Part shown: piece after piece, positions 26,291 through 31,394 of the stretch
Layout of the letters: each line of letters opens with the position of its first letter
How positions within the stretch are numbered: the first letter of the stretch is position 1
Assembly (NCBI RefSeq): GCF_963921235.1
Contig: NC_086097.1
Coordinates: forward strand, 18,478,001-18,542,000
Reading direction: 5' to 3'
From: Mobula hypostoma
Taxonomy: Eukaryota
Length of the DNA stretch: 64,000 nucleotides
The notes under the pieces: generated by a model
The model's database searches: none
Told to the model about the DNA's origin: nothing
The model's input: the letters and a program-made list of their open reading frames with translations, nothing else
Translations under genes and position numbers: made by a program

Positions 26291-26515
26291 TAATTCCCAT
26301 TACCACTGCTTTGGTGATATTGCTGGAGGCAGTTATATTTTGTGACGTCGCGATAGTAGTTAGGCCACAGATGGAGCCCACTGTCTTGGTTGTCAGACTA
26401 CGGGCAGGATGTAGTGACTTCAGGAAGGATAAAACAAACAGTCTGCTGAAAAAGCAGCATCTGTCAGGGGAAGGGAATTGGTGAAATTCTGGTTCAAAAC
26501 CCTGTCAAAAAAGAA

Positions 26516-27180
26516 CTTACTTAGTTGGGCCCTTAACTCCTAACTGGAGCATAGGCCATCGACGACCTCCCTGAAGGTGATGGTATGGTTGCAGTTCATC
26601 AATGCTTCTGTAATCTTGTTGTTCGTCCATCGTTGACGTCGATGAGGACCTTGACACCATAATGATGGTGTCGAGACTAGCGCGTGATTTGGATTTAAGT
26701 GAGGGAGAGTTGCGCAGCGTCAGCCTCACTCTCTCTTCCCAATTCCCATCTGGATCCAGTGGCAAGACAGAGTCTAGATGGATGGAGATGGGACTAGGCG
26801 CAGTGGATGACCAGGACGTCTTCTGTGTCTTGTCCTGCTCTACAAGTTCCACGACGCTTGCAGAGACCGCCTTCTTGACCGTTGGACCTTCCATTGGTCT
26901 CGTCCGCTCAATCCGCTGGAGTCTGTCATCAAATGCTGGGATAGACAACTCCCTATCTCACCGAGGGTTTGAGACCCGTCGGCTACCCTCACCTGGTTTA
27001 GCCGGCTTGTCGAAGCCGTTGCTCGGGGTGTGGCTGCTGTCGCATGCAAACAGCTACAGGGAGCCACAGGTGAGAGCTGAGTGCCAGGTGGGGACCAAAG
27101 GTGGACTAACCTCCCTGAAAAGGACGCGACATGTTCCCCCACCAGAGGTGCTACCCCTCCCTGACACCCCATATACCCCT
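26516..27180 (-). mobile_element. Bipartite non-autonomous RTE-derived element (RTE 5'UTR-like body + RTE 3' tail)
   Basis: Minus strand ends GGCCTATGCTCC...TAAGTAAG (RTE-type tail); body contains GAGAGTGAGGCTGACG...CCCTCACTTAAATCCAA; CpG-rich; no RT ORF. Confidence 0.75.
26985..27170 (-). ncRNA. HDV-like self-cleaving ribozyme fold
   Basis: P1 GGGGUGU/ACACCCC, P2 GCUCUCACCUGU/ACCAGGUGAGGGU, P3 GGC/GCC, L3 starting UCC, P4 CGGCUU/AAGCCG, J4/2 GCUAA, all in canonical order. Confidence 0.75.
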
Positions 27181-28488
27181 CTGTAATCTATTGTATGCAC
27201 TGTACAAGGGAATTGGTCTATACAGCTTCACCAGAGCCCTGTTGGCTGGCCCTTCCCACTTTCACCTCTTCTGACATTGATGTAGGGCTGGACTTTGAGA
27301 GGCATCAGAAAGAAATGTCATCCTGAAATGTTGACAAGTCCCTTCCCCCTGCAGGTGCTGCTCGACCTGCTGAGTTCCTACAGTTGGATGTTTGTTACTC
27401 CAGGTTCCAAAATCTGCAGTCTCTTGTATCCCTGTAGGATGGCCGTGACGCACAAGGGAAGGAGAGAAAAGAGCTAGAAGGACATAGAGGAGAGGGTGGC
27501 TGCAAATATGTAAAAATTATGAGAACTCAAGAGAGGGTGAAGAGTAAGGATTCATAGAACATTCCATTTCAAGTGGGCTTGGCTCATTTGGAAAAGAATT
27601 AGGAAAAATTCTTCCGCTCATCAAATATTGGTGCTTTGGAACCCACAGTCCAAAAGAGAAACCCTCGTCATATTTAAAAAGCACCAGGATGAGAACATCA
27701 GCTAGCTGTGACTCGCAAAGCTCTGGACCAGGAGCCAGACAAGACGATTAAACTAAACCCATTTTTACCGGTATGAACACGATTGGCTGAATGGCCTCCA
27801 ATAGATTTCTGTGATGGAGAAAATAGGCAAGTCATGAGTAAACAAGATCCATAAGCTTGGAATTTTGTGGACTCTGTGACCTTGTCTTCCCCAACCCCAT
27901 TTTTGCCCAGTCTTTATCCTGTAGCTGACTGAAAGTTGAGGAGGATGACTTTAAATCAGCAAAGTACTTTGTCAAAGGCAGTGTAACTGATTTACCTTAG
28001 CAACAGATCGACAAAGGTTCAAACAACTAATTCTGTATTGGTCCAAATTAGATTCAAAAGGAATTCTACTCACTCTGGAAACAATATTGTGAAAATAACA
28101 GTGCAGGTTCAGACAGCAAACTTTATTGTGCATCTACAGTTGGACTGGCTCTGTTTCTACAGCAATGCCAGTTCAGGATAGCTGAACTAAACATATACCT
28201 TCCCTCTGTTCCATGCCAAATGAGGTGCAGATCACTGGTGGTAAACTCCAAATGTGCTGCTAAAGAACAGGAACTCTGATACCTTCCTAGTCACAGCTTT
28301 GTGGATTTAAAAGCCCATAACAAAATTGAAGCATATTTGACTGATTAAAAATCCTCATGAAGTCAAAAAATTCCAAGTTCAAAGTAATTATTATTATCAG
28401 AGTACATATATATCACCATATACAATCCTGAGTTTCATTTTCCTGTGGGCATACTCAGCAAATCTATAGAATAATAACTATATTATCA

Positions 28489-30921
28489 ATGGCATGTGGC
28501 AAAGAAAATGTCGCAGTAGTTATGGGGGATTTCAACGTGCAGGTGAATTGGAAAAATCAGGTTGGTACTGGACCCCAGGATAGGGAGTTTGTAGAGAGCC
28601 TACAGGATGTATTTTTGGAGCAGCTTGTACGAGAGCCGACCAGGGATAAGGCTATTCTGGATTTAATGTTGTGCAATGAACAGGATTTGATAAGTGATTT
28701 TGAAGTAAAGGAGCCATTAGGAGGTAGTGACCATAATATGATGAGTTTTTATCTGCAAGTTGAGAGGGATAAGGGCAGATCAGAAGTGTCAGTATTGCAG
28801 TTGAACAAAGGAGACTATGGAGCCATGAGGGAGGAGCTGGCCAAAGTTGACTGGTCGGATATCCTAGCAGAAAAGACAGTGGAACAGCAATGGCAGGTAT
28901 TCTTGGGAATTATGCACAAGGTGCAAAATCAGTTCATCCCCCAGAGAAGGAAGGATTCAAAGGGGGGAAAGTGGCCACAGTGGTTGACAAAGGAAGTCAG
29001 AGATAGCATAGCATTAAAAAAGAAGTATACCAGAGCTAAGGTGAGTGGGAAGACGGATGATTGGGAAATTTTTAAGGAGCAACAGAACTTAACTAAAAAG
29101 GCAACACGGGGAGAAAAAATGAGGTATGAACGCAAGCTAGCTAGGAATATAAAGGAGGATAGCAAAAGTTCTTTTAGGTATTTGAAGAGAAGAAAGATAG
29201 TTAAGAACAATGTTGGGCCCTTGAAGAATGAATTGGGAGAAATTGTTATGGGAAACAGGGAAATGGCAGACGAATTTAAGAAGTACTTTGGATCTGTCTT
29301 CACTAGGGAAGACACAAGCAATCTCCCAGATGTATGGATGGGCCAAGGACATAGGGTAACAGAGGAACTGAAACAGATTGACATTAGGAAGGAAACGGTG
29401 ATGAGTAGACTGATGGGACTGAAGGCTAACAAATCCCCAGGTCCAGATGGTCTGCATCCTAGGGTACTAAAGGAGGTGGCTCTGGAAATTGTGGATGCAT
29501 TGGTGATCATTTTCCAATGTTCCTTAGATTCAGGATCAGTTCCTGAGGATTGGCGAATGGCTAATGTTATCCCAATTTTTAAGAAAGGAGGGAGGGAGAA
29601 AACAGAGAACTATCGCCCTGTTAGCCTAACATCAGTAGTGGGGAAGATGCTAGAGTCCATTATTAAAGATGAAATAGCAACATATCTTGATAGCAGTGAT
29701 AAGATTGGGCCGAGCCAGCAAGGATTTACCAAGGGCAAATCATGCTTGACTAATCTATTAGAGTTTTTCGAGGATGTAACCAGGAAGATAGATGCGGGAA
29801 ATCCAGTGGATGTGGTGTACCTTGACTTTCAGAAGGCATTTGATAAGGTACCACATAGGAGATTGGTGGGTAAAATCAGAGCTCATGGCATTGGGGGGAG
29901 GATATTGACATGGATAGAAAACTGGTTGGCAGATAGAAAGCAAAGGGTAGCAGTGAATGGGTGTTTCTCGGAATGGCAGGTGGTGACTAGTGGGGTGCCA
30001 CAGGGCTCGGTATTGGGACCACAGCTGTTTACGATTTACGTCAATGATTTAGAGGAAGGCATTGTGAATAACATCAGCAAGTTTGCTGATGATACTAAGC
30101 TGGGTGGCAGTGTGACATATGATGAGGATGTTAGGAGAATTCAAGGTGACTTGGATAGGCTGGGTGAGTGGGCAGAAACTTGGCAGATGGTGTTTAATGT
30201 GAATAAGTGTGAGGTTATTCACTTTGGGAGCAAGAACAGGAAGGCAGATTATTATCTGAACGGTGTGGAGTTAGGTAAGGGAGAAACACAAAGAGATCTA
30301 GGAGTACTTGTTCATCAGTCTCTGAAGGTGAATGAGCAAGTGCAGCAGGCAGTGAAGAAGGCTAATGGAATGTTAGCCTTTATTACAAAGGGAATGGAGT
30401 ACAAGAGCAAGGAAATCCTTTTGCATTTGTACAGGGCCCTGGTGAGACCACACCTGGAGTATTGTGTGCAATTTTGGTCTCCAGGGTTAAGGACGGACAT
30501 CCTGGCTGTGGAGGAGGTGCAGCGTAGGTTCACTAGGTTAATTCCTGGGATGTCCGGTCTGTCTTACGCAGGGAGGTTAGAGAGACTGGGCTTGTACACG
30601 CTGGAATTAAGGAGATTGAGGGGGGATCTGATTGAGACATATAAGATTATTAAGGGATTGGACAAGATAGAGGCAGGAAATATGTTCCAGATGCTGGGAG
30701 AGTCTAATACCAGAGGGCATGGTTTAAGAATAAGGGGTAGGTCATTTAGGGCAGAGTTGAGGAGGAACTTCTTCTCCCAGAGAGTTGTGGAGGTGCGGAA
30801 CGCGCTGCCTCAGAAGGCAGTGGAGGCCAATTCTCTGGATGTTTTCAAGAAGGAGCTAGATGGGTACCTTATGGATAGGGGAATCCAGGGTTATGGGGAC
30901 AAGGCAGGAACCGGGTACTGA
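28489..30921 (+). CDS. CR1 LINE ORF2 (partial APE endonuclease + reverse transcriptase), 810 aa uninterrupted, 5'-truncated
   Basis: MGDFN, GGSDHN, NYRPVSLTS, GVPQGSVLGP and KFADDTK motifs with no stops; 3'UTR and (CTATTGT)n tail to ~31012. Confidence 0.95.
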   Translation: MACGKENVAVVMGDFNVQVNWKNQVGTGPQDREFVESLQDVFLEQLVREPTRDKAILDLMLCNEQDLISDFEVKEPLGGSDHNMMSFYLQVERDKGRSEVSVLQLNKGDYGAMREELAKVDWSDILAEKTVEQQWQVFLGIMHKVQNQFIPQRRKDSKGGKWPQWLTKEVRDSIALKKKYTRAKVSGKTDDWEIFKEQQNLTKKATRGEKMRYERKLARNIKEDSKSSFRYLKRRKIVKNNVGPLKNELGEIVMGNREMADEFKKYFGSVFTREDTSNLPDVWMGQGHRVTEELKQIDIRKETVMSRLMGLKANKSPGPDGLHPRVLKEVALEIVDALVIIFQCSLDSGSVPEDWRMANVIPIFKKGGREKTENYRPVSLTSVVGKMLESIIKDEIATYLDSSDKIGPSQQGFTKGKSCLTNLLEFFEDVTRKIDAGNPVDVVYLDFQKAFDKVPHRRLVGKIRAHGIGGRILTWIENWLADRKQRVAVNGCFSEWQVVTSGVPQGSVLGPQLFTIYVNDLEEGIVNNISKFADDTKLGGSVTYDEDVRRIQGDLDRLGEWAETWQMVFNVNKCEVIHFGSKNRKADYYLNGVELGKGETQRDLGVLVHQSLKVNEQVQQAVKKANGMLAFITKGMEYKSKEILLHLYRALVRPHLEYCVQFWSPGLRTDILAVEEVQRRFTRLIPGMSGLSYAGRLERLGLYTLELRRLRGDLIETYKIIKGLDKIEAGNMFQMLGESNTRGHGLRIRGRSFRAELRRNFFSQRVVEVRNALPQKAVEANSLDVFKKELDGYLMDRGIQGYGDKAGTGY

Positions 30922-31394
30922 TAGTAGATGATCAGCCATGATCTCAGAATGGCGGTGCAGGCTCGAAGGGCTGAATGGTCTACTTCTGCACCTATTGTCT
31001 ATTGTCTATTGTATAAACAGGATCAATGGAAGATCAACCAGAGTACAGAAGACAACAAACTGTGCAAACGCACATATAAATAAATAGCAATAAATAACGA
31101 GAACATGACATAATGAGATAAAGAATCCTTAAAGTGACATCATTGGTTGTGGGAAACAACTCAACGATGGGACGAGTGAGTGTAGTTACCCCGTTTTGCT
31201 CAAGAGACAGAGTCATACAATCATTGTCCTTTGACTTGCTCATGCTGACCAAACTGCCCGTTTGCCTGATTTGCCCAATGTCCCTCTAAATGTTTCCTAT
31301 CCAAGTACCTGTACAAGTGGCTTTTAAAAGTTGTTACAGTACCTGCCTCGATCATAACTTCTGGCTACTCATCCCATGAATGGAATACCTTCCC

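What the first reader, a model, noticed from the sequence alone, without database searches (positions are those of the whole stretch)
26985..27170. HDV-like ribozyme fold at the 5' end of a non-autonomous RTE-derived element
Seen on the minus strand, in canonical HDV order: P1 5' GGGGUGU (27170-27164); a long J1/2; P2 5' GCUCUCACCUGU (27077-27066); P3 GGC (27065-27063); L3 beginning UCC; P3' GCC (27034-27032); P1' ACACCCC (27031-27025); GAGCAA; P4 CGGCUU-CGAC-AAGCCG; J4/2 GCUAA with the putative catalytic C at 27001; P2' ACCAGGUGAGGGU (one bulged C). The predicted cleavage site (5' of G27170) lies at or within about 10 nt of the apparent element start. Established: HDV-like ribozymes process the 5' ends of R2, RTE and L1Tc retrotransposon transcripts. 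Two things are unusual: L3 carries an inserted hairpin (GCUGUUUGCAUGCGACAGC), and P1.1 reads GA rather than GG, so this copy may be impaired. Inference: a SINE-like family released from host transcripts by self-cleavage rather than driven by a Pol III promoter.
Basis: partly seen in the sequence, partly recalled or inferred. Interest (0 to 1): 0.85.

Follow-up and report, generated by a model that had tools for sequence, protein, structure and literature searches.

The report
Probable self-cleaving ribozyme heading a retrotransposon
The first 195 bases of a 564-base, high-copy mobile element fold like the hepatitis-delta-type self-cutting RNA that some jumping genes use to trim their own transcripts, and the full-length parent element carries the same head; this is a plausible new example of a known trick, with cutting itself still untested.

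Summary
A relaxed HDV-type descriptor finds only this site in the window and none in 100 dinucleotide shuffles. The stretch is the head of a 564-bp non-coding retroelement (window 27179-26616, minus strand) with target-site duplications and a (CAA)n tail, and at least 3,210 candidate copies.

Three corrections:
- The odd "GA" at P1.1 is a private CpG decay; 29 of 30 copies read the canonical GG.
- Copies start at G27179, not G27170: 25 of 30 at position 1, 0 at position 10. The first 7 nt (ancestrally GGGGUGU) pair with the same ACACCCC.
- L3 begins with a canonical-looking 8 nt (UCCNNGNN); the extra hairpin follows it.

An older family shows core conservation (2 of 55 core against 27 of 140 peripheral differences) and a compensatory G-C to C-G change in P4. 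P1, P2 and P3 never vary, so they show no covariation.

Full-length 4-kb LINEs (EN+RT, one with an intact ORF) carry the same head. The window element is thus an internally deleted derivative. The RTE assignment fits but is not phylogenetically proven. Catalysis is untested, and Rfam gives no hit.

The parts
26616..27179 (-). Whole non-autonomous element (564 bp): a short internally deleted derivative (SIDE) of a ribozyme-headed LINE, family 'A'
   Evidence: Blast limits against 29 other copies at 96-97% identity. At least 3,210 first-look candidates, of which 40 were scored. No long conserved ORF. TSDs and tail seen.
27180..27188 (-). 5' copy of the target-site duplication (GATTACAGA)
   Evidence: The TSD directly abuts G27179.
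26607..26615 (-). 3' copy of the target-site duplication
27173..27179 (-). Proposed P1 5' strand (GGGGUAU here; GGGGUGU in 8 of 30 family-A copies, in family B and in the LINEs), with the inferred cleavage site 5' of G27179
   Evidence: It pairs with ACACCCC at 27031-27025, with one A.C mismatch in this copy. Element 5' ends lie here. The G variant is the majority in family B, 21 of 33. LINE L174 also carries it.
27164..27170 (-).
   Evidence: Paired with 27088-27079 in the minimum-free-energy fold. One-sided changes in this helix keep pairing across families (helix 2). No copy starts here: 0 of 30.
27079..27169 (-). J1/2 insert folding into a long hairpin (P1.2-like peripheral domain)
   Evidence: Minimum-free-energy fold. 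One pair changes on both sides, GC 14 / AU 8 (columns 89-138). This is the most variable part between families, 19 of 95 positions. Precedent in PMC4908430 (passages).
27066..27077 (-). P2 5' strand
   Evidence: Pairs with 26985-26997. Across 29 sequences 92% of cells are paired, and the helix does not vary between families.
27063..27065 (-). P3 5' strand (GGC)
27055..27062 (-). L3 core (UCCCUGUA here; UCCCCGUA in the family-A consensus, UCCAAGUA in family B)
   Evidence: U118, C119, C120 and G123 are kept in 30 of 30 family-A copies and in 28-31 of 33 family-B copies; positions 121-122 differ between families. Alignment to HDV L3 positions 20-27 is from recall.
27036..27054 (-). Extra hairpin GCUGU-UUGCAUGCG-ACAGC inserted between the L3 core and P3'
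   Evidence: Present in families A and B and in LINEs L169 and L174; 96% of cells paired (helix 12).
27032..27034 (-). P3 3' strand (GCC)
27025..27031 (-). P1 3' strand (ACACCCC)
27023..27024 (-). P1.1 3' strand: GA in this copy, GG in 29 of 30 copies
   Evidence: The A is a CpG-type transition private to the window copy.
27003..27018 (-). P4 hairpin (CGGCUU-CGAC-AAGCCG)
   Evidence: In family B the second pair is C-G instead of G-C, and the fifth pair is U.G instead of U-A.
26998..27002 (-). J4/2 (GCUAA) with the putative catalytic C at 27001
   Evidence: C179 is kept in 30 of 30 family-A and 27 of 33 family-B copies. It fits C-N-R-A. The role is inferred.
26985..26997 (-). P2 3' strand, with one bulged C
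26616..26660 (-). 3' end region with short hairpins and the (CAA)n tail, presumably the reverse-transcriptase recognition end
   Evidence: Tails are (CAA)n or (CAAC)n. 18 of 24 TSDs start with A, and 22 of 24 are preceded by T.

Best explanation
The 5' 195 nt of the element (window 27179-26985, minus strand) encode an HDV-like self-cleaving ribozyme inherited from an RTE-like LINE.

Proposed fold:
- P1 = nt 1-7 (27179-27173) with ACACCCC.
- A 95-nt J1/2 whose hairpin (nt 11-101) acts as a P1.2-type clamp.
- P2, 12 bp.
- P3, GGC/GCC.
- L3 core UCCNNGNN, followed by an extra hairpin.
- P1.1, CC with GG.
- P4 hairpin.
- J4/2 GCUAA, with C27001 as general acid.

Proposed mechanism. The LINE and its short internally deleted derivatives lack a promoter of their own at the first base. 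They are transcribed as part of longer host or neighbouring transcripts. The ribozyme cuts just 5' of the element's first G. This releases an RNA that begins exactly at the element boundary, and the LINE's EN/RT then copies it by target-primed reverse transcription at T|A sites.

Shown: the fold fits; its core is conserved while the periphery varies; P4 covaries; copies begin at the first G; the parent LINE has the same head.

Inferred: catalysis, the cleavage site, co-transcription, and the role of C27001.

The window copy itself is a decayed insertion. It has an A.C mismatch in P1, GA in P1.1 and two further changes in or beside L3, and it is probably impaired.
For: 1. All helices sit in HDV order at the stated coordinates. 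The descriptor finds 1 site in the window and 0 in 100 shuffles.
2. The family consensus restores canonical P1.1 GG in 29 of 30 copies.
3. L3 U-C-C..G and J4/2 C-U-A-A are kept in both families.
4. Comparing the family-A consensus (30 copies) with a family-B consensus (33 copies chosen by a downstream stretch, so unbiased for the head) gives 2 of 55 differences in core positions against 27 of 140 in J1/2, the L3 remainder, J1.1/4 and P4; Fisher p = 0.006.
5. The second pair of P4 is G-C in 11 sequences, C-G in 11, and U.G or G.U in 5, out of 29. A J1/2 hairpin pair is GC in 14 and AU in 8. Overall, 15 pairs show changes on both sides, a count reached by 2 of 500 shuffles.
6. 5' ends: 26 of 40 best genomic matches begin exactly at G27179. 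25 of 30 aligned copies start at position 1 and none at position 10, and 14 of the 30 have a TSD flush against their first aligned base (12 of those at position 1). Family-B copies and LINE L170 (TSD TATGTG) also begin at the first GGGGURU.
7. Full-length LINEs carry the same head 855-900 nt upstream of a 1,050-1,110-aa EN+RT ORF (L169, L170, L174). L174 belongs to a copy whose ORF is uninterrupted, and it is 93% identical to the window element over 265 nt.
8. Precedents, from the passages I read: HDV-like ribozymes process R2, L1Tc, baggins and RTE transcripts (PMC6765202); structured J1/2 'P1.2' domains activate large HDV-like ribozymes (PMC4908430); R2 J1/2 loops reach 216-498 nt (PMC3774820).
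Against: - No cleavage data exist.
- P1, P2 and P3 never vary in anything I collected, so there is no covariation for the two pseudoknot helices.
- The covarying helices (P4, J1/2) are ordinary hairpins, and any structured RNA would keep them.
- Rfam's HDV-family models give nothing at E up to 10.
- In R2 ribozymes, L3 with P3 and P1.1 is a tight 15-nt block (PMC3774820, passage). Here a 19-nt hairpin plus one G sits between L3 and P3', next to the active site.
- The first P1 pair is G-C in family A (28 of 30), not the G.U wobble I recall for HDV and CPEB3. In family B the site is a CpG, read T in 15 and C in 14 copies.
- 22 of 30 family-A copies have A at position 6, an A.C mismatch in P1, yet that subfamily spread.
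- The descriptor was written after seeing the candidate.
- The minimum-free-energy z-score is only -1.75.
- The Fisher test compares only two lineages.
Confidence: 0.65

Rival explanations
1. The ribozyme is real, but P1 is the second GGGGUGU (27170-27164), so cleavage falls 9 nt inside the element.
For: The second repeat is a perfect 7-bp partner of ACACCCC in 22 of 30 family-A copies whose first repeat has an A.C mismatch. The descriptor accepts both registers in L063. A few copies begin near position 7-10: L024, L067, L074 and L120.
Against: An RNA cut there would lose GGGGURUAU, yet 25 of 30 copies keep it and 0 of 30 start at position 10. The same holds for family B and LINE L170. The second repeat pairs with 27088-27079 in the minimum-free-energy fold, and that helix keeps pairing across families (helix 2: 87% of cells paired). 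In the intact-ORF LINE L174 the second repeat reads GGGGCAU and the first GGGGUGU.
Confidence: 0.1
2. The head is a conserved structured 5' UTR with another job (internal promoter, translation start, or packaging/RNP signal). Either it never cleaves, or it is a dead relic of a ribozyme.
For: Conservation of sequence without covariation in P1, P2 and P3 fits any sequence-level constraint, such as a DNA promoter element. In L1Tc the same 77 nt are both promoter and ribozyme (PMC3383444, abstract in the listing). The sharp 5' ends at one G would also follow from a defined transcription start. The L3 insertion and the G1-C pair depart from the canonical active site.
Against: The match to the full HDV order, with UCC..G in L3, GG, C-N-R-A and a bulge-tolerant 12-bp P2, occurred 0 times in 100 shuffles. 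The variable parts (J1/2, J1.1/4, P4 sequence) are exactly those that HDV-like ribozymes tolerate (PMC3774820 and PMC4908430, passages). About half of the 5' junctions carry 1-14 extra nt, as described for R2 elements cut at their own 5' end (PMC3774820, passages).
Confidence: 0.2
3. It is an ordinary Pol III SINE head (tRNA-, 7SL- or 5S-derived), and the fold is incidental.
For: The element is short, high in copy number and non-coding, with a LINE-type tail.
Against: ARAGORN finds no tRNA-like gene in 26500-27300. Rfam gives no tRNA, 7SL or 5S match at E up to 10. The same head starts 4-kb LINEs with 1,050-1,110-aa ORFs.
Confidence: 0.02
4. It is a chance resemblance in G+C-rich repeat DNA.
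For: The minimum-free-energy z-score is only -1.75. My descriptor was written post hoc.
Against: There were 0 hits in 100 shuffled windows. The core is conserved against the periphery. The consensus repairs the one non-canonical feature, GA to GG. The fold sits exactly at the element's 5' end.
Confidence: 0.03

Closest known systems
[quoted passage not shown]
   Same: Same position at the very 5' end of the element, same nested double-pseudoknot order, and the same presumed job of releasing the element RNA from a co-transcript (PMC6765202 passages; PMC3774820 abstract and passages).
   Different: Activity is untested here. An extra hairpin lies between L3 and P3'. The first pair is G1-C in family A. 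The P1 strand occurs twice in tandem. The host is a large, probably vertebrate, genome. I could not read the paper that describes the RTE ribozymes (Ruminski et al. 2011, not held), so I cannot say whether their L3 looks like this one.
Large HDV-like ribozymes with a structured J1/2 'P1.2' peripheral domain (drz-Agam-2 type)
   Same: A helix in J1/2 brings the outer ends of P1 and P2 together, with 2-3 nt and 1 nt spacers. Here that is the hairpin at nt 11-101, between P1 (1-7) and P2 (103-114) (PMC4908430 passages).
   Different: Here the 5' strand of that helix repeats the P1 strand, so an alternative P1 is possible. No kinetic data exist.
SIDEs: R2 SIDE of Drosophila, NARTc/RIME of trypanosomes
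   Same: Non-autonomous elements made by internal deletion of a ribozyme-headed LINE. They keep the 5' ribozyme and the 3' end recognised by the reverse transcriptase (PMC3414825 abstract; PMC4035085 passages). The window element shares at least 265 nt of its 5' end with LINE L174. The sister family C keeps about 400 nt of the LINE 3' end, including remnants of the ORF's C-terminus.
   Different: Not site-specific. Copy number runs to thousands (3,210 and 4,432 first-look candidates for two families), whereas R2 SIDEs are called rare in the abstract of PMC3414825.
RTE-related SINEs of animals with (CAA)n tails
   Same: The tail is (CAA)n and 18 of 24 TSDs start with A, as described for animal RTE-clade LINEs and one type of their SINEs (PMC6007223, section 16).
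   Different: Those SINEs have Pol III heads as far as I recall; this one has the LINE's own 5' UTR. I did not see table 2 or supplementary table S3 of that paper.
HDV genomic ribozyme and the CPEB3 ribozyme
   Same: L3 starts U-C-C and has a G at the sixth place. GG follows P1'. J4/2 reads C-N-A-A. The GGGCAAC-like stretch after P1' is present in the family-A consensus. All of this comparison is recalled, not from a call.
   Different: J1/2 is 95 nt rather than a few. There is an insertion after L3. The first pair is G1-C rather than G.U. Rfam shows no sequence-level match.

Membership tests
HDV-like self-cleaving ribozyme | Nested double pseudoknot in the order P1, J1/2, P2, P3, L3, P3', P1', P1.1, P4, J4/2, P2' | tested here: met
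   The definition comes from PMC4908430 (passage).
HDV-like self-cleaving ribozyme | Cleavage at the first nucleotide of P1, so the product begins with that G | tested here: inconclusive
Cleavage itself was not tested.
HDV-like self-cleaving ribozyme | P1.1: two C-G pairs between L3 and the two G after P1' | tested here: met
   CC with GG in 29 of 30 family-A copies. The window copy has GA.
HDV-like self-cleaving ribozyme | Catalytic C in J4/2 (C-N-R-A) | tested here: met
   CUAA. The C is kept in 30 of 30 family-A and 27 of 33 family-B copies. The motif itself is recalled.
HDV-like self-cleaving ribozyme | Short conserved L3 (P1.1 + P3 + L3 is about 15 nt in R2 ribozymes), with an important G | tested here: not met
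   L3 as drawn is 28 nt. The first 8 nt (UCCNNGNN) conform, but a 19-nt hairpin plus one G follow (PMC3774820 passages).
HDV-like self-cleaving ribozyme | G.U wobble as the first P1 pair (recalled for HDV and CPEB3; not a strict rule as far as I know) | tested here: not met
   G-C in 28 of 30 family-A copies. In family B the site reads T in 15 and C in 14 copies, at a CpG.
HDV-like self-cleaving ribozyme | Covariation supporting the helices | tested here: inconclusive
   P4 and the J1/2 hairpin covary. P1, P2 and P3 never vary.
HDV-like self-cleaving ribozyme | Match to Rfam HDV-family covariance models | tested here: not met
   No match at gathering score or at E up to 10. This is expected to be hard given the 95-nt and 20-nt insertions.
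HDV-like self-cleaving ribozyme | Divalent-ion-dependent self-scission abolished by mutating the catalytic C | not testable with these tools
   Needs a bench assay.
SIDE (short internally deleted element of a LINE) | Shares the 5' end of an autonomous LINE | tested here: met
   93% identity over nt 1-265 with the head of L174, a LINE copy with an uninterrupted 1,109-aa frame. Also 77-80% identity with L169 and L170.
SIDE (short internally deleted element of a LINE) | Shares the 3' end of that LINE | tested here: inconclusive
   Shown for the sister family C (L165 against L168 and L170).
SIDE (short internally deleted element of a LINE) | No coding capacity of its own; TSDs and a LINE-type tail | tested here: met
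   The open frames are not conserved between families (hand comparison of the sequences).
RTE clade of LINEs (the parent element) | One long ORF starting directly with an AP-type endonuclease, followed by RT | tested here: met
   P0002, which is 59-66% identical to the older head-bearing copies such as L169 and L170 and 47% to the L174 copy, has Exo_endo_phos at residues 3-230 and RVT_1 at 550-818 of 1,056 aa. Genomic copies match residues 1-1052. Absence of an ORF1 in the 855-900-nt leader was not checked.
RTE clade of LINEs (the parent element) | Very short 3' UTR and a microsatellite-like tail; (CAA)n with TSDs starting in A in animals | tested here: met
   About 45 nt lie between the stop codon and the tail in L170 (read by eye). 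The criterion comes from PMC6007223 section 16; the short 3' UTR is recalled.
RTE clade of LINEs (the parent element) | RT phylogeny places it among reference RTE elements | not tested
   No reference RTE sequences were available.
Pol III-driven SINE | Head derived from tRNA, 7SL or 5S | tested here: not met

The most novel reading that the evidence does not exclude
This would be a structurally new branch of the HDV-like ribozyme family with two features:
- A conserved hairpin is inserted at the L3/P3' junction beside the active site, and its loop holds the palindrome GCAUGC.
- Two tandem copies of the P1 substrate strand let the RNA choose between a cleaving fold (first copy in P1, second copy in the P1.2 clamp) and a non-cleaving or differently cleaving fold.

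It would serve an active RTE-type LINE and thousands of SIDE copies in a large, probably vertebrate, genome. It would also scatter thousands of potential self-cleavage sites through host transcripts.
Probability: 0.2. Interest if true: 0.7.

Novelty: new member of a known kind. Interest (0 to 1): 0.5.

Why it matters
If the head cleaves, three things follow.
- It would extend ribozyme-based 5' processing to an RTE-like LINE and to very abundant deletion derivatives in a large animal genome. It would explain how a promoter-less, non-tRNA short element reaches thousands of copies.
- It would mark thousands of places where host transcripts could be cut.
- The insertion next to L3 and the duplicated P1 strand would be useful test cases for how much the HDV active site tolerates.

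If the head does not cleave, it is still a clear case of a LINE/SIDE pair sharing a conserved structured 5' UTR. Either way the principle is already described for R2, L1Tc and insect RTE elements, so the finding is solid but not surprising.

Tried and rejected
**RNA families.** Rfam gave no relevant family at gathering score or at E up to 10.

**Expression.** No RNA holder is listed. The four runs I laid (X2, X9, X11, X14) are contigs of uncertain kind. They show relatives of the element in four other coded organisms, but they cannot show RNA starts, and table 6 was empty.

**Covariation inside family A.** None. The differences are independent CpG-type decays; positions 122 and 145 change together only in the window copy.

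**More diverged copies in sequence already held.** None found in the 170 kb in hand.

**Earlier notes of this scan.** Nothing for this genome or sequence.

**Candidate partner LINEs, rejected:**
- The dominant L1-type LINE: 1,264-aa ORF2, A-rich tail, no similarity.
- The CR1-type element in the window: (CTATTGT)n tail.
- An L2-type copy in L082: no similarity.

**Searching for the partner through the family-A tail.** 17 of 20 tails continued as the short element, and 3 were truncated copies.

**Open frames as coding sequence.** I read the sense and antisense open frames of the element, but the frames are not conserved between families.

**A first, stricter descriptor.** It found nothing because of the P2 bulge and the GA.

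**A second abundant LINE lineage.** It is about 50% identical in protein and showed no ribozyme in the 400 nt examined in 3 copies; other positions were not examined.

**Naming the LINE clade from databases.** Hits were unnamed or generically named.

**Steps that could not be run:**
- Three papers were not held: Ruminski et al. 2011 by DOI and by PMC id, and Jimenez et al. 2015.

**Literature searches.** For HDV-like ribozymes in vertebrate RTE elements or SINEs I found none describing this family or an L3 insertion. These searches cover open-access text only.
Full report
**Observation**

The pairings hold when checked in a script.

The plain minimum-free-energy fold of 27175-26980 is -83.6 kcal/mol, z = -1.75, and 10 of 200 shuffles fold as well. 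It contains P2, P4 and the hairpin inside L3.

I wrote a loose HDV-type descriptor after seeing the candidate. It finds this site and no other in the real window, and nothing in 100 dinucleotide shuffles of the 64 kb on both strands. A stricter first version found nothing, because of the P2 bulge and the GA.

Rfam finds no HDV-family match. That holds at gathering score and at E up to 10 on the window stretch and on 7 near-consensus copies.

**What the stretch belongs to**

The genome is 3.48 Gb in 200 contigs. The 531-nt query gave 3,210 first-look candidates, of which 40 were scored, all 96-100% identical.

Blast against 29 of these copies sets the element at window 27179-26616, 564 bp.
- Copies are flanked by target-site duplications. 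24 of 30 have a TSD of 7 nt or more, 18 of those 24 start with A, and 22 of 24 are preceded by T.
- Copies end in (CAA)n or (CAAC)n.
- There is no tRNA-like head.
- Open frames on both strands are not conserved between families, and I take them as chance.

**Three corrections from the copies**

1. *P1.1.* 29 of 30 copies read GG after ACACCCC. The window's GA is a private CpG-type change, as are changes at 27058 and 27035.
2. *The 5' end.* 26 of the 40 best matches begin at query position 52, which is G27179. 25 of 30 aligned copies start at element position 1. 14 of the 30 have a TSD flush against their first aligned base (12 of those at position 1), and the rest have 1-23 extra nucleotides. 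None starts at position 10, which is G27170.
   - The element begins with a tandem repeat: GGGGURUAU followed by GGGGUGU.
   - The first copy reads GGGGUGU in 8 of 30 family-A copies, in 21 of 33 family-B copies, and in the LINE head L174. It is therefore an equally good partner of ACACCCC.
   - With P1 at nt 1-7, the second copy is free to form the base of the J1/2 hairpin (nt 11-101), which then sits between P1 and P2 with short spacers. That is the 'P1.2' peripheral-domain layout reported to activate large HDV-like ribozymes (PMC4908430, passages).
3. *L3.* The first eight nucleotides are UCCCCGUA in family A and UCCAAGUA in family B. They keep U, C, C and the sixth-place G. From recall, they line up with HDV L3. 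The 19-nt hairpin plus one G follow them, so the insertion lies at the L3/P3' junction rather than in the middle of L3.

**Related families**

A pattern for the core that excluded family A gave 111 matches in the genome and 0 for the reversed control. Most belong to an older family B, with copies 85-89% alike and 4,432 first-look candidates.

To avoid bias, I took the heads of the 39 best matches to a downstream stretch of a family-B copy. I dropped 6:
- 4 without head sequence in the stretch fetched,
- 1 microsatellite,
- 1 duplicate.

Comparing the consensus of these 33 with that of the 30 family-A copies gave the following differences:

| Region | Differences |
|---|---|
| Core positions (P1, P2, P3, UCC, P3', P1', P1.1, J4/2, P2') | 2 of 55 |
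| J1/2 | 19 of 95 |
| Rest of L3 | 2 of 25 |
| J1.1/4 | 3 of 4 |
| P4 | 3 of 16 |

Core against the rest gives Fisher p = 0.006. The two core differences are position 6 and the last P1' base. The latter is a CpG site, read T in 15 and C in 14 family-B copies.

I also counted pairs on a 29-sequence alignment (13 family-A-type and 16 pattern-selected), with these results:
- 86.8% of cells are paired.
- 15 pairs show changes on both sides, a count reached by 2 of 500 shuffles.
- The clear cases are the second P4 pair (C-G 11, G-C 11, U.G 4, G.U 1, unpaired 2) and one J1/2 hairpin pair (GC 14, AU 8).
- P1, P2 and P3 never vary between lineages. Departures there are unpaired cells in decayed copies, so these helices have no covariation support.

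Contigs of four coded runs from other organisms hold relatives of both families. Their loose ends show the same conserved GG and GCUAA with family-B-type P4. These are contigs of uncertain kind and say nothing about RNA ends.

**The parent element**

The dominant L1-type LINE, the window's CR1-type element and an L2-type copy share nothing with the element.

Among 20 pattern hits examined downstream of the head, 18 had the family-B body. One (L165) is a 718-bp element with TSD GACTACA. Behind the head, its body is the decayed C-terminal coding part and 3' end of a LINE.

That peptide led to an unnamed 1,056-aa database protein, P0002, with endonuclease at residues 3-230 and reverse transcriptase at residues 550-818. 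P0002 in turn led to 48 genomic matches (44 of 218,441 candidates scored).

Three full-length copies carry the same head:
- **L170.** It starts GGGAUGUAU-GGGGUGUCC directly after the TSD TATGTG. It is 77% identical to the window element over nt 1-380. The ORF starts about 855 nt downstream, and about 45 nt lie between the stop codon and the tail.
- **L169.** 80% identical over nt 8-216, with a family-A-type P4.
- **L174.** This is the leader of a copy whose 1,109-aa frame has no stop. It is 93% identical to the window element over nt 1-265, starts GGGGUGUAU, and lies 864 nt upstream of the ORF match.

The window element is therefore a short internally deleted derivative (SIDE) of this LINE. 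That is the same relation as R2 SIDE to R2 or NARTc to L1Tc (PMC3414825 abstract; PMC4035085 passages).

Three copies of a second, abundant lineage (about 50% protein identity) have a G+C-rich leader with no such head in the 400 nt examined.

**Is the parent an RTE?** These features fit:
- a single ORF that opens with the endonuclease,
- a length of about 4 kb,
- a very short 3' UTR,
- the (CAA)n tail with TSDs starting in A.

The last feature matches what PMC6007223 (section 16) describes for animal RTE-clade LINEs and their SINEs. The C-terminal motifs look RTE-like to me from recall. I had no reference sequences for a tree, and database names were generic or absent. I therefore call it RTE-like, not proven.

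**Mechanism and weighing**

The best reading (0.65) is a working, or recently working, HDV-like ribozyme. It would cut 5' of the element's first G and release LINE and SIDE RNA from longer transcripts.

For it:
- the full canonical order and signature nucleotides,
- a consensus that repairs the one flaw,
- core-against-periphery conservation,
- P4 covariation,
- the exact 5' position,
- variable extra nucleotides at about half of the 5' junctions, as described for R2 elements cut at their own end (PMC3774820, passages),
- inheritance from a LINE of a type already reported to use such ribozymes (PMC6765202, passages).

Against it:
- no biochemical test,
- no covariation in the pseudoknot helices,
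- no Rfam match,
- an insertion beside the active site,
- a G-C first pair in family A,
- an A.C mismatch in P1 in the most successful subfamily.

A structured leader with a different function is the main rival (0.2). A Pol III head and chance together are at 0.05.

The window copy, with four changes in the head relative to its family consensus, is most likely inactive whatever the family does.

**Novelty**

The principle is known: ribozyme-headed LINEs, including RTEs, and their SIDEs. What may be new:
- the host group,
- the copy number,
- the hairpin after L3,
- the duplicated P1 strand.

I could not read the primary RTE ribozyme paper. My open-access searches found no description of this family.

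Noticed in passing
window 28432-30921 (+), tail about 30990-31012: An uninterrupted 829-aa CR1-type ORF2 ending in a (CTATTGT)n microsatellite tail. It looks like a young CR1 copy and is unrelated to the finding.
   Followed up: partly
window 26614-27186 (+): A 190-codon stop-free frame runs antisense across the whole element, and a sense frame from an ATG near element position 283 is open to the tail. The frames are not kept between families A and B, so I take them as chance in G+C-rich DNA (hand comparison).
   Followed up: partly
window 27041-27049 (-): The loop of the hairpin that follows L3 (UUGCAUGCG) contains the palindrome GCAUGC, identical in the family-A and family-B consensus. A loop-loop dimer contact is conceivable but untested.
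   Followed up: no
window 26550-26615 and 27207-27250: The flanks of the element are themselves repeated. Contigs from other organisms join 26609/26615 to 27207-27227 with 16-23 other letters and no element, so the SIDE sits inside an older repeat (tables 5 and 5c).
   Followed up: no
L104, L105 (G000 C1:196471300-196472700; C2:203953300-203954700): The genome's commonest LINE is L1-type with a 1,264-aa ORF2, many intact copies and an A-rich tail. The RVT_1 search gave 332,531 first-look candidates.
   Followed up: partly
L171-L173 (leaders of C50:39670426, C18:97405749, C73:38446380): A second, abundant LINE lineage is about 50% identical in protein to the ribozyme-headed one, and several copies have uninterrupted frames of 1,109-1,131 aa. 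Its G+C-rich, CpG-rich leader has no HDV-like head in the 400 nt examined, so it may use a promoter instead.
   Followed up: no
L168 (G000 C50:108964300-108968700): A decayed head-bearing element lies in opposite orientation next to a 792-aa CR1-type ORF and a LINE 3' fragment. This is a nest of insertions.
   Followed up: no
family-A insertion sites (L002-L030 and the window): There is a strong target preference: 22 of 24 TSDs are preceded by T and 18 of 24 begin with A.
   Followed up: partly
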